This document shows positions 23,082 through 23,852 of a stretch of 51,506 bases of DNA, piece after piece. The stretch's first letter is position 1. Each line of letters begins with the position of its first letter. The position numbers and the translations under genes are program-made. Source of the DNA: a virus; the UHGV virus genome UHGV-0335272; one strand, written 5' to 3'. A model generated the notes under the pieces. That model searched no databases. It had not been told where the DNA came from and saw nothing but the letters and a program-made list of their open reading frames with translations.

Positions 23082-23852
23082 ATGAAAGAACAATCTTTAC
23101 CCATCGTCCCCTGGATTGGGGGTAAACGTCGTCTGGCTAAACACATTCTGCCTCTGTTCCCGGCCCACACCTGCTACGTGGAGCCGTTCTGCGGCGCAGC
23201 GGCGCTCTATTTCCTCAAGACACCCAGCAAGACCGAAGTCATCAACGATATTAACGGCGAGCTGGTGAACCTCTATCGGGTGGTCAAGCACCATCTGGAA
23301 GAGTTTGTCCGTCAGTTCAAGTGGGCACTAGTCAGCCGCCAGATATTCAAATGGCTGCAGGACACGCCGGAAGAGACGCTCACCGACATTCAGCGGGCGG
23401 CCCGGTTCTACTACCTGCAGAAACAGGCGTTTGGCGGCAAGGTCGCCGATCACACATTCGGTACCTCTACAACCAGTGCGCCGCGCTTCAATCTGCTGCG
23501 TATTGAGGAGGAACTGTCTATGGCACATCTGCGCCTTTCCAGAACGTTGATAGAGCATCTGGACTGGCACCAGTGCATAGAGCGATATGATCGCCCCCAC
23601 ACGCTTTTCTACTGTGATCCGCCGTACTGGGGAACGGAAGGCTATGGTGTGGATTTTCCGATAGGTAACTATTTCCACATGGCGGAGCTGGCGCGGAGCA
23701 TCAAAGGTAAGATGATTATTTCGGTGAACGATATCCCGGAGATGCGGCAAGCATTCAATGGCCTGAATATTCAGACGGTCGATATCAGCTACAACCTGAA
23801 GGTCACCGGGAAAGCCTCACGGCGGAAAGAGCTGGTGATTTGCAATTTTTAA
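23082..23852 (+). CDS. DNA adenine methyltransferase, Dam-like
   Basis: 256 aa with DPPY catalytic motif (CDPPYWGTEGYG) and N-terminal FCGAAALYF SAM-binding region. Confidence 0.85.
   Translation: MKEQSLPIVPWIGGKRRLAKHILPLFPAHTCYVEPFCGAAALYFLKTPSKTEVINDINGELVNLYRVVKHHLEEFVRQFKWALVSRQIFKWLQDTPEETLTDIQRAARFYYLQKQAFGGKVADHTFGTSTTSAPRFNLLRIEEELSMAHLRLSRTLIEHLDWHQCIERYDRPHTLFYCDPPYWGTEGYGVDFPIGNYFHMAELARSIKGKMIISVNDIPEMRQAFNGLNIQTVDISYNLKVTGKASRRKELVICNF

What the first reader, a model, noticed from the sequence alone, without database searches (positions are those of the whole stretch)
23082..23852. Orphan Dam-like adenine methyltransferase in the prophage accessory region
A DPPY-motif N6-adenine methyltransferase without any adjacent restriction endonuclease, convergent with the lipoprotein gene and flanked by hairpins. 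It could protect phage DNA from host restriction, act in phage regulation, or alter host GATC methylation.
Basis: partly seen in the sequence, partly recalled or inferred. Interest (0 to 1): 0.4.

Follow-up and report, generated by a model that had tools for sequence, protein, structure and literature searches.

The report
Phage orphan methylase with RNA leader
The gene is a real but ordinary, already-annotated stand-alone DNA adenine methylase of a Mu-like (BcepMu-type) prophage; the unexpected part is a highly conserved, folded, roughly 146-base RNA leader in front of it that probably keeps the enzyme switched off until the phage grows lytically.

Summary
The ORF at 23082-23852 (+) is real: a 256-aa alpha-class (D12, Dam-family) N6-adenine DNA methyltransferase with intact motif I and DPPY, under strong purifying selection (dN/dS 0.02-0.08). 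It sits in the variable region between the repressor and the holin/late operon of a BcepMu-like transposable prophage. No endonuclease is adjacent, and 80 relatives from other species share no conserved partner gene, so "orphan" holds. Relatives at 95-97% identity are annotated across Enterobacterales, and about 10% of complete E. coli genomes carry one. The ST131 copy is very likely M.EcoMIV, reported as poorly transcribed with no assignable motif. Specificity is unknown: the residues by which E. coli Dam reads GATC are not conserved.

It evolves 10-30 times slower than synonymous sites, shows abundant compensatory base-pair changes, pairs with the ribosome-binding region, and precedes this methylase in most relatives across gamma-, beta- and delta-proteobacteria and in phage phiE125. 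It matches no Rfam family. In 13 of 80 relatives a Com (Mu com/mom) zinc-finger gene lies between leader and methylase. Best reading: a tightly gated, lytic-phase self-protection methylase, functionally like Mu Mom.

The parts
23082..23852 (+). Orphan alpha-class (D12/Dam-family) N6-adenine DNA methyltransferase, 256 aa. Motif I is at aa 34-41 and DPPY at aa 179-182.
   Evidence: dN/dS is 0.02-0.08 against seven orthologues.
22936..23081 (+). Conserved structured non-coding leader (putative 5' UTR) of the methylase.
   Evidence: 94.5-98.6% identical where CDS synonymous divergence dS is 0.5-0.75. Covariance model R1 hits directly upstream of the methylase in about 62 of 80 relatives and in phiE125. 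No hits in about 455 kb of control DNA. No Rfam match.
22943..22946 (+). P1 5' strand (GAAC). It pairs with 23014-23017 (GTTC) and closes a three-way junction around H1 and H2.
   Evidence: RNAalifold on an independent MAFFT alignment A6. 96.9% of cells paired, 3 of 4 pairs with changes on both sides.
22947..22978 (+). H1, a 13-bp GC-rich hairpin. This is the 'upstream hairpin' of the finding.
   Evidence: 12 of 13 pairs show changes on both sides in A5 and 8 of 13 in A4.
22986..23002 (+). H2, CACAG-N7-CUGUG hairpin. Its 3' arm can alternatively pair with the RBS-proximal box.
   Evidence: Invariant in Enterobacterales. Covaries in the wider set, AU to GC in 15 sequences and AU to UA in 11.
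23012..23045 (+). H3, a long hairpin with inner palindrome GTCTCGCGAGAC. It is followed by UUUU at 23052-23055. Its 5' base overlaps the P1 3' strand.
   Evidence: The inner stem changes GTCTCGCGAGAC / GTCATCGATGAC / GTTCTCGAGAAC.
23066..23078 (+). RBS region AAAAGGCUUACGG (-16 to -4 of the AUG). GGCUUACGG (23070-23078) pairs with CUGUGAGCC (22998-23006).
   Evidence: The minimum-free-energy fold uses this pairing. 9/9 pairs in most Enterobacterales, with covariation CTGTGAG/CTTACAG, CTGCAAG/CTTGCAG and CTGTGAGCC/GGCTCAC.
23865..23900 (.). Hairpin with 17-nt arms between the convergent methylase and lipoprotein genes. Probably a bidirectional terminator.
   Evidence: Relatives carry unrelated hairpins at the same place just after the stop codon.
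22889..22905 (.). GTAAACAGCGTTAATAG, a conserved element 36 nt upstream of the leader. It is a partial second copy of the element next to the holin gene.
   Evidence: Its function as a promoter or activator site is inferred, not shown.
22041..22062 (.). GGATTTTAAAGCGCGTTATAAG, a conserved element upstream of the holin (late operon). It is shared with cassette-less relatives, where one copy lies between holin and methylase.
22129..22852 (-). Variable cassette left of the methylase: a SLATT-like 2TM gene (22129-22677) plus an unannotated 65-aa ORF (22655-22852). Context only, not part of the methylase unit.
   Evidence: Replaced by a DUF2441 gene, by other genes, or by nothing in relatives.
23903..24874 (-). 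Lipoprotein gene (23903-24436) and CI-type repressor gene (24464-24874), conserved right-hand neighbours. Context only.

Best explanation
A stand-alone, catalytically intact alpha-class N6-adenine DNA methyltransferase carried as a self-contained unit (structured leader, gene, terminator hairpin) by a BcepMu-like transposable prophage. It is kept off in the lysogen. It is made during lytic growth so that replicated phage DNA is methylated before packaging and resists restriction in the next host. This is the role Mom plays in Mu and the Hia5/Hin1523 methylases play in FluMu-type prophages.

Expression is gated after transcription by a ~146-nt leader. This comprises a three-way junction (P1/H1/H2) and a long hairpin (H3). 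Two conserved, mutually exclusive pairings reach the GGCUUAC box between the Shine-Dalgarno sequence and the AUG, so the ribosome-binding site is occluded in the most stable fold.

Shown: family, motifs, selection, lack of a partner gene, conservation and covariation of the leader and its linkage to the gene, and Com genes in some relatives. Inferred: timing of expression, the anti-restriction role, direction of the switch, and what flips it. Sequence specificity is unknown and probably not read the way E. coli Dam reads GATC.
For: Family and motifs.

Purifying selection: dN/dS 0.02-0.08.

Prophage type and position. Mor is at 32233-32622, the transposase at 26415-28184 and the holin at 21639-21989.

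Orphan status: flanking genes are not nucleases. 150 neighbour ORFs in 80 loci form no cluster larger than 8, and 109 are singletons.

Silence in the lysogen: EC958 carries an 86%-identical copy with the same leader. Forde et al. 2015 (PMC4659465) report the Phi2 D12-class orphan M.EcoMIV as transcribed far below dam, with no motif.

Leader:
- Conservation exceeds that of the CDS.
- On a MAFFT alignment, 92.8% of cells pair and covariation is 0.259 against 0.147 for shuffles and at most 0.081 for slid partners.
- On 47 sequences, 33 of 37 pairs change on both sides and covariation is 0.386 against 0.140.
- On an independent alignment, P1/H1/H2 pair at 94.9% with covariation 0.43 against 0.146.
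- The RBS pairing appears in the MFE fold and covaries.
- Model hits occur only upstream of the methylase.

Link to the Mom module: Com (PF10122, E 1e-13 to 1e-16) is encoded between leader and methylase in 13 of 80 relatives.

Precedent: Drozdz et al. 2012 (PMC3299994) show Dam-related methylases replacing mom in Mu-like prophages, silent in lysogens.
Against: There are no expression or methylation data for this gene. The equation of the EC958 gene with M.EcoMIV rests on location and domain class, not on a verified locus tag.

No promoter was identified for the leader. The window has no com gene, so the activating signal is unknown.

H1 carries more A-C than G-U mismatches. This would fit a minus-strand hairpin or a DNA-level element.

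Both alternative folds appear to occlude the RBS, so an ON state is not defined. The CM-based alignment is biased towards the modelled structure.

The anti-restriction role is by analogy only. Palindrome-avoidance statistics do not separate this phage from lambda, P2, P22 or Mu.
Confidence: 0.6

Rival explanations
1. A canonical GATC Dam isoenzyme that supplements host Dam during rapid phage replication, for full methylation, MutH avoidance, packaging or gene control, as in P1, T1 and Stx phages.
For: The best solved relatives are the GATC enzymes DpnM and E. coli Dam (E about 1e-14 to 1e-15). TIGR00571 'dam' scores near its cutoff. GATC methylation would be invisible in a Dam+ lysogen, which fits the absence of a new motif. 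The phiE125 annotation notes similarity to M.AlwI, which recognises GGATC.
Against: The recognition hairpin signature N-[LM]-x-R-x-N...F-x-x-P-[FY]-G shared by E. coli Dam, T4 Dam and DpnM is replaced by F-G-G-K-x5-F-G-x-[ST]-T-T, and K9 is replaced by P. The subfamily is common in phages of Dam-less hosts such as Burkholderia and Pseudomonas. The prophage is as GATC-depleted (O/E 0.39) as methylase-less enteric phages (0.20-0.55), whereas T1 with its own Dam is at 0.78. The T1 comparison is weak evidence, a single control.
Confidence: 0.2
2. A lysogenic-conversion epigenetic regulator, expressed in the lysogen to reprogram host gene expression, as proposed for the VHML methylase in Vibrio harveyi.
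For: Moron-like architecture with its own control region and terminator, in the region that carries lysogeny genes. The literature proposes such roles for related phage methylases.
Against: The ST131 orthologue is poorly transcribed and yields no motif in the lysogen. The RBS is sequestered in the leader. Relatives place the gene at the end of late or lysis operons, or behind com.
Confidence: 0.1
3. The conserved upstream block is not a cis-acting mRNA leader. It is instead a DNA-level control region (promoter or operators with dyad symmetry), or it encodes a separate small or antisense RNA ending at H1 or H3.
For: H2 is an invariant 5-7-5 inverted repeat in Enterobacterales. H1 has more A-C than G-U mismatches, and on the minus strand it is followed by TTCTTTC. 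In Enterobacterales H3 is followed by UUUU, like a terminator. No promoter was located.
Against: Helices keep pairing while their sequences change, which is unlike protein operators. H2 covaries in the wider set. The pairing with the RBS box has 39 G-U against 2 A-C, so it works only on the + strand. In distant relatives the block follows directly on the stop codon of an upstream same-strand gene and lacks the U-tract, so it is intercistronic RNA. Its orientation is always that of the methylase.
Confidence: 0.2
4. A remnant of a type II restriction-modification system whose endonuclease has decayed.
For: The best PADLOC model is labelled 'Type II methyltransferase'. One homologue is named 'restriction endonuclease subunit M' by its source.
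Against: There is no nuclease-like ORF or remnant in the flanks: 404 nt on one side, mostly the conserved leader, and 50 nt on the other. The left neighbour is variable or absent. No conserved partner exists in 80 loci. The context is always phage.
Confidence: 0.03

Closest known systems
E. coli Dam, T4 Dam and DpnM (D12-class, alpha-group GATC methyltransferases; PDB 2g1p, 2dpm)
   Same: Same Pfam family and the same motif order (motif I, then target-recognition region, then DPPY). Aromatic residue at the Y119 position. Similar size.
   Different: Only about 18-24% identity. The GATC-reading residues K9, N120, L122, R124 and P134 are not conserved. TIGR00571 scores just below its cutoff, and the PRK10904 equivalog far below (66.9 against 441).
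M.EcoMIV of E. coli ST131 EC958 (prophage Phi2) and the 'DNA adenine methylase' genes of BcepMu-like prophages in Enterobacterales, including Klebsiella phage KP12
   Same: Same gene in the same place in the same prophage type, 86-97% identical, with the same leader.
   Different: Left-hand cassette differs: SLATT-like here and in E. coli S12, DUF2441 or other genes elsewhere. Identity of the EC958 gene with M.EcoMIV is inferred from prophage location and domain class.
Burkholderia phage phiE125 gp27, with the phiHAP-1, VP882 and VHML methylases
   Same: Same subfamily, 64-68% identity. phiE125 also has the leader (E 4.5e-9). From my own recollection of Woods et al. 2002, which is not in the paper library, gp27 was shown to be an adenine methylase.
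   Different: Different phage types (lambda-like siphovirus; N15-like linear plasmid prophages). There the gene follows the lysis or tail genes on the same strand.
Mu com-mom module
   Same: A DNA-modification gene of a transposable phage, with translation blocked by mRNA structure around the start. 13 of 80 relatives of this methylase have a Com (PF10122) gene directly upstream. Presumed late, anti-restriction role.
   Different: Mom is an acetamido-transferase-type enzyme unrelated to methyltransferases. The window has no com gene. The gene is central, not at the right end. The leader is unrelated in sequence.
Hia5 / Hin1523 / Nma1821 non-specific adenine methyltransferases of Mu-like prophages (Drozdz et al. 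2012, PMC3299994)
   Same: Dam-related DPPY enzymes with divergent recognition regions, in Mu-like prophages, silent in lysogens, replacing Mom.
   Different: They sit at the mom position next to com. They are only remotely similar to classical Dam enzymes, reaching MboIA at PSI-BLAST iteration 3, whereas this protein hits Dam directly.
Known cis-regulatory RNAs (Rfam 15), including the 'D12-methyl' motif, which I recall from Weinberg et al. 2017 as lying upstream of D12-class methylase genes
   Same: A structured element in the 5' region of a D12-class methylase gene.
   Different: No Rfam family matches the leader in the window, even at E<=10 on 211 nt, or in 16 diverse relatives at gathering thresholds. 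The D12-methyl comparison rests on that negative search. I could not read its description.

Membership tests
D12-class / Dam-family N6-adenine DNA methyltransferase | Match to PF02086 above the gathering score | tested here: met
   96.4 bits against 22, E=3e-27, covering aa 11-234.
D12-class / Dam-family N6-adenine DNA methyltransferase | Alpha-group order: SAM-binding motif I (FxGxG-type) N-terminal, recognition region in the middle, catalytic motif IV (D/N-PP-Y/F) C-terminal | tested here: met
   F36-C-G38-A-A and D179-P-P-Y182. F36, G38 and DPPY are invariant in the alignment with E. coli Dam and T4 Dam.
D12-class / Dam-family N6-adenine DNA methyltransferase | NCBIfam TIGR00571 'dam' subfamily cutoff; PRK10904 equivalog cutoff | tested here: not met
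   111.9 against 114.85 bits (marginal) and 66.9 against 441 bits.
GATC-specific Dam enzymes | GATC-contact residues of E. coli Dam (K9, N120, L122, R124, P134), as assigned from my recollection of Horton et al. 2006, and the shared hairpin signature | tested here: not met
   Replaced by P, G, K, A and T/S in the window protein, with the same pattern in phiE125 and phiHAP-1 homologues.
GATC-specific Dam enzymes | Methylation of GATC | not testable with these tools
   Needs expression in a dam- host with DpnI/MboI digestion or long-read methylome analysis.
Orphan (solitary) phage methyltransferase | No restriction endonuclease gene adjacent | tested here: met
   Neighbours are a SLATT-like 2TM protein and a lipoprotein. 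No nuclease family was found in Pfam, NCBIfam, PADLOC or PHROGs.
Orphan (solitary) phage methyltransferase | No conserved partner gene across relatives | tested here: met
   80 loci, 150 neighbour ORFs, largest cluster 8 (a lysis transglycosylase), 109 singletons.
Type II restriction-modification system | Cognate endonuclease encoded next to the methylase | tested here: not met
Mu com-mom type translational control | Com zinc-ribbon protein (PF10122) encoded immediately upstream of the modification gene | tested here: not met
   None in the window by tblastn or by a CxxC...CxxC scan. Present in 13 of 80 relatives.
Mu com-mom type translational control | Start region of the modification gene sequestered in mRNA secondary structure | tested here: met
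   In silico only. The MFE fold pairs -12..-4 with 22998-23006, and the pairing is conserved and covaries.
Hia5/Hin1523/Nma1821 non-specific methylases | Sequence membership in that subfamily | not tested
Indirect hints argue against membership.
Hia5/Hin1523/Nma1821 non-specific methylases | Located at the mom position at the right end of a Mu-like prophage | tested here: not met
   The gene lies centrally, between the repressor and the holin. The right end of the prophage carries Mor.
BcepMu-like transposable prophage (context) | Divergent early arm (repressor, DDE transposase, ExeA-like ATPase, GemA, Mor) and late arm (holin, SLT lysin, Mu gp27/gp28/gp29-like, P2-like tail) | tested here: met
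   BcepMu itself has no methylase in this interval.
Any Rfam 15 RNA family (for the leader) | Covariance-model match | tested here: not met
   Only chance hairpin matches to miRNA models, E>=0.47. Nothing at gathering thresholds in 16 relatives.

The most novel reading that the evidence does not exclude
The ~146-nt block upstream of the gene is a previously undescribed riboregulator, widespread across proteobacterial phages. It is a conformational switch: three-way junction against long hairpin, with two competing partners for the RBS box. It gates translation of a phage DNA-modification enzyme. In some lineages it works together with a Com protein. In others, including this window, it works alone, possibly responding to upstream translation, to the methylase itself, or to a small ligand. 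The methylase it controls may have a non-GATC, possibly relaxed, specificity that makes untimely expression harmful, as with Mom.
Probability: 0.5. Interest if true: 0.6.

Novelty: new variant of a known kind. Interest (0 to 1): 0.4.

Why it matters
The methylase alone adds little. Orphan phage methylases are common and this one is already annotated in thousands of genomes.

The value lies in two things. First, about a tenth of E. coli genomes and many other Enterobacterales carry a conserved, apparently silent methylase of unknown specificity. Knowing when and on what it acts bears on phage host range and on the interpretation of bacterial methylomes.

Second, the conserved leader gives a concrete, testable mechanism for how temperate phages keep a potentially harmful DNA-modification enzyme off in the lysogen. 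The Com genes in relatives link it to Mu's classic com/mom control. If confirmed, it would be a new cis-regulatory RNA family with hundreds of members.

Tried and rejected
1. Palindrome avoidance as a read-out of specificity. A/T-free 6-mer palindromes are very depleted (O/E 0.12; KP12 0.07) while A-containing ones are not (0.76). This looked like the signature of a promiscuous adenine methylase. Lambda, Mu, P2 and P22 show the same contrast (0.21-0.35 against 0.69-0.75), so it does not discriminate.

2. GATC depletion (O/E 0.39) is likewise generic for enteric temperate phages. Only the single control T1, at 0.78, hints that a phage GATC methylase relaxes it.

3. The promoter search found nothing useful. 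The only sigma-70-like hit overlaps the start codon. Manual inspection found no conserved -10/-35, only the conserved GCGTTAAKAG element 36 nt upstream.

4. Rfam searches were all negative.

5. Literature. The phiE125 paper is not held. One search returned only irrelevant papers. A search for 'D12-methyl' found nothing, and the term is absent from the main text of Weinberg 2017.

6. Two 50-kb fetches of EC958 missed the prophage before the third found it.

7. The leader as coding sequence was rejected, because indels are not multiples of three and substitutions show no codon periodicity.

8. The leader as a dispersed repeat was rejected, because there is one copy per locus and none in control DNA.

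9. Structure prediction of the methylase was not run. Only near-identical homologues (at least 94% identity) were available for an alignment, and a model would not settle specificity.
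Full report
**The observation.**
- It matches Pfam PF02086 (D12-class N6-adenine DNA methyltransferase) at E=3e-27, far above the gathering score.
- NCBIfam TIGR00571 'dam' scores 111.9 bits, just under its cutoff of 114.85.
- A PADLOC type II methylase model matches at E=5e-114, and PHROG 56 matches at E=4e-97.
- The catalytic DPPY is at residues 179-182 (nt 23616-23627) and the SAM-binding motif (EPFCGAAA) at 34-41. This is the alpha-group order.
- The closest solved structures are DpnM and E. coli Dam (E about 1e-14 to 1e-15) and M.CbeI, an alpha-class N4-cytosine enzyme. DPPY rather than SPPY argues for adenine.
- Against seven orthologues whose synonymous divergence is 0.5-0.75, dN/dS is 0.02-0.08. 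The gene is therefore maintained by selection.

**Context.** The window is most of a BcepMu-like transposable prophage.
- To the right lie a CI-type repressor (24464-24874, -), a ner-like gene, an HTH gene, DUF3102, a DDE transposase (26415-28184), an ExeA-like ATPase, DUF3164, GemA and Mor (32233-32622). The host gene roxA follows at 33757-34878.
- To the left, on the minus strand, lie the holin (21639-21989), an SLT lysin, Mu gp27-like and terminase genes, and P2-like tail genes.
- The layout mirrors BcepMu, where the interval between repressor and holin holds three unrelated small genes and no methylase.
- The host flank is only about 78% identical to E. coli, so the host is another member of the Enterobacterales.

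**Orphan status.**
- The right neighbour (23903-24436, -) is a lipoprotein with a LAGC lipobox and no family match.
- The left neighbour (22129-22677, -) is a weak SLATT-like two-transmembrane protein (NF033632 E=7e-6; PADLOC '2TM effector' E=7e-5). Neither is a nuclease.
- The left slot is variable. It holds the same cassette in E. coli S12 and Trabulsiella, a DUF2441 gene in phage KP12 and E. coli EcPF16, other genes in ST131, and nothing in E. coli CFS3292. The methylase, lipoprotein and repressor stay put throughout.
- In 80 loci from different species that encode a relative at 64-97% identity, the 150 ORFs flanking the methylase form no cluster larger than eight, and 109 are singletons. 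There is no cognate endonuclease, here or in the family.

**How common and how well known.**
- Proteins 95-97% identical are annotated 'DNA adenine methylase' in Salmonella, Citrobacter, E. coli, Klebsiella, Enterobacter, Serratia, Yersinia and Pantoea.
- A blastn search finds the gene in 543 of 5426 complete E. coli genomes. The prophage's transposase is found in 639 by the less sensitive megablast.
- Homologues at 57-68% identity occur in Burkholderia phage phiE125 (gp27), Halomonas phage phiHAP-1, and in Ralstonia, Pseudomonas and Acinetobacter phages.
- E. coli ST131 strain EC958 carries the same prophage type with an 86%-identical methylase at 1031787-1032551.
- Forde et al. 2015 describe M.EcoMIV as a D12-class orphan on prophage Phi2. 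They report it transcribed far below dam in LB, with no assignable SMRT motif and no homologue above 65% identity of known specificity. That is very probably this gene, but I could not verify the locus tag.

**Specificity.** The name 'Dam-like' holds for the fold and family but not demonstrably for GATC.
- E. coli Dam, T4 Dam and DpnM share a recognition hairpin, [YF]-x-[NG]-[LM]-x-R-x-N...F-x-x-P-[FY]-G. In alignments this subfamily instead has F-G-G-K-x5-F-G-x-[ST]-T-T.
- The Dam contacts K9, N120, L122, R124 and P134 correspond to P, G, K, A and T/S. The residue roles come from my recollection of Horton et al. 2006.
- The subfamily thrives in phages of Dam-less hosts.
- The prophage is GATC-depleted (O/E 0.39; KP12 0.38), like methylase-less enteric phages (lambda 0.55, Mu 0.44, P2 0.20, P22 0.33). 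T1, which has its own Dam, stands at 0.78, the host at 0.84-0.87, and BcepMu at 1.02. This is only a weak hint.
- I also tested whether the extreme depletion of A/T-free palindromes (O/E 0.12) pointed to a promiscuous adenine methylase. Control phages show the same pattern, so it does not.
- Specificity stays open.

**The upstream 'hairpin' is part of something larger.**
- The 146 nt before the start codon (22936-23081) are 94.5-98.6% identical between genomes whose methylase genes differ at 40-47% of synonymous sites.
- Indels that are not multiples of three rule out coding.
- An alignment of 17 Enterobacterales shows three hairpins:
  - H1 at 22947-22978.
  - H2, CACAG-N7-CUGUG, at 22986-23002.
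  - H3 at 23012-23045, followed by UUUU.
- The sequences of these hairpins change while pairing is kept. For example, the inner stem of H3 reads GTCTCGCGAGAC, GTCATCGATGAC or GTTCTCGAGAAC.
- On this MAFFT alignment 92.8% of cells pair and 15 pairs change on both sides. The covariation score is 0.259, against 0.147 for column shuffles (0 of 500 reach it) and at most 0.081 when partners are slid.

**Distribution of the element.**
- A covariance model built from the 17-sequence alignment finds the element on the methylase strand, ending at the start codon, in about 62 of the 80 loci. These include beta- and delta-proteobacteria (E 1e-15 to 1e-4).
- It also finds the element upstream of phiE125 gp27 (E 4.5e-9).
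- It finds nothing in about 455 kb of control DNA: E. coli chromosome, lambda, Mu, P2, P22, T1 and BcepMu.
- On 47 model-aligned sequences, 33 of 37 pairs change on both sides, with covariation 0.386 against 0.140. That alignment is fitted to the model.
- An independent MAFFT alignment of 24 diverse leaders gives the H1 apex, H2 and a new helix P1 (22943-22946 with 23014-23017). Here 94.9% of cells pair, with covariation 0.43 against 0.146 for shuffles and at most 0.10 for slid partners.
- No Rfam 15 family matches, in the window even at E<=10, or in 16 relatives.

**What the leader probably does.**
- The box GGCUUACGG (23070-23078, positions -12 to -4) lies between the Shine-Dalgarno-like AAAGG and the AUG. 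It is complementary to CUGUGAGCC (22998-23006), which comprises the 3' arm of H2 plus four bases.
- The minimum-free-energy fold of the window's leader uses this pairing (-49.2 kcal/mol, z = -2.7).
- The pairing is 9/9 in most Enterobacterales and covaries elsewhere: CTGCAAG with CTTGCAG, and CTGTGAGCC with GGCTCAC. It has 39 G-U and only 2 A-C cells, so it works only on the + strand.
- H2 and this pairing exclude each other. So do P1 and the base of H3, which share nucleotides that covary with both partners. That is the pattern expected of a conformational switch acting on the ribosome-binding site.
- In distant relatives the leader begins right after the stop codon of an upstream gene on the same strand, and it often lacks the U-tract. 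It is therefore an intercistronic RNA element, not a separate small-RNA gene.

**Open points on the leader.**
- No promoter was found in the window.
- A conserved element, GCGTTAAKAG, lies 36 nt upstream of the leader. A fuller copy sits next to the holin gene. This is compatible with late, Mor-type control but does not show it.
- H1 has more A-C than G-U mismatches.
- I cannot define the ON state.

**Link to Mu's mom.**
- In 13 of the 80 relatives a small ORF lies directly upstream of, and overlapping, the methylase gene. In at least five of them it lies directly after the leader.
- The ORF belongs to the Com family (PF10122, E 1e-13 to 1e-16). This is the zinc-ribbon translational activator of Mu's mom gene.
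- Drozdz et al. 2012 showed that Dam-related, non-specific adenine methylases replace mom in FluMu-type prophages and are silent in lysogens.
- The window has no com gene and no zinc-ribbon ORF.
- Taken together, this methylase subfamily behaves as a Mom-like module: a tightly gated DNA-modification function of temperate phages. In many lineages, including this one, it is gated by the leader alone.

**Verdict.**
The gene is already annotated and widespread, and its ST131 copy has been looked at experimentally.
- GATC specificity and an effect on the host methylome are not supported.
- The noteworthy result is the conserved, covarying leader that occludes the ribosome-binding site, together with its association with Com in relatives. 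As far as I could check, this is undescribed.
- All functional statements about timing, role and switching are inferences that simple experiments can test.

Noticed in passing
window 22129-22852 (-): Variable cassette between the holin promoter region and the methylase leader. It holds a 182-aa SLATT-like two-transmembrane protein (weak hits to NF033632 and to a PADLOC '2TM effector'; phrog_11791) preceded by an unannotated 65-aa hydrophilic ORF with a good RBS. A lone SLATT-type effector in a prophage accessory slot could be a defence or exclusion gene. Relatives carry DUF2441 or other genes here.
   Followed up: partly
window 23903-24436 (-): A 177-aa lipoprotein gene (lipobox LAGC) lies directly downstream of, and co-oriented with, the repressor gene. 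It is conserved in this position in E. coli, Klebsiella phage KP12 and Xenorhabdus relatives. It has no known family apart from a weak match to phrog_10002, and is plausibly a superinfection-exclusion protein expressed in the lysogen.
   Followed up: no
window 1-32800; L001 (KP12): The prophage almost lacks A/T-free 6-bp palindromes: CCCGGG, CCGCGG and GGGCCC 0 copies, GGCGCC and GCGCGC 1 copy, for an overall O/E of 0.12. It is also depleted in GATC (O/E 0.39). The depletion is stronger than in lambda, Mu, P2 or P22, whereas BcepMu from Burkholderia shows none (0.98 and 1.02).
   Followed up: yes
window 22041-22062 and 22889-22905: The conserved element GGATTTTAAAGCGCGTTATAAG next to the holin gene has a partial second copy, GTAAACAGCGTTAATAG, at the other edge of the inserted cassette. 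The cassette appears to have entered at, or duplicated, this shared control element.
   Followed up: partly
L071, L048, L074 (Paludibacterium denitrificans); L048:3818-4100: One genome carries three copies of the leader-com-methylase unit. In L048 the Com-like ORF reads in frame into the methylase without a stop, which suggests a Com-methylase fusion or a sequencing frameshift.
   Followed up: no
P0001: An E. coli homologue of 320 aa, against 256 aa for the window protein, at 89% identity over 92% of the query. It may be an extended or misannotated start.
   Followed up: no
L061:4953-5024, L055:5844-5916, L073:6642-6697: tRNA genes lie about 200-1100 nt downstream of the methylase in two deltaproteobacterial loci, possibly marking prophage ends at tRNA attachment sites. 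A chrB-b RNA lies in a Variovorax locus.
   Followed up: no
window 23616-23619: One of only three GATC sites inside the methylase gene (23448, 23589, 23616) overlaps the DPPY codons (GAT CCG). The leader contains none.
   Followed up: no
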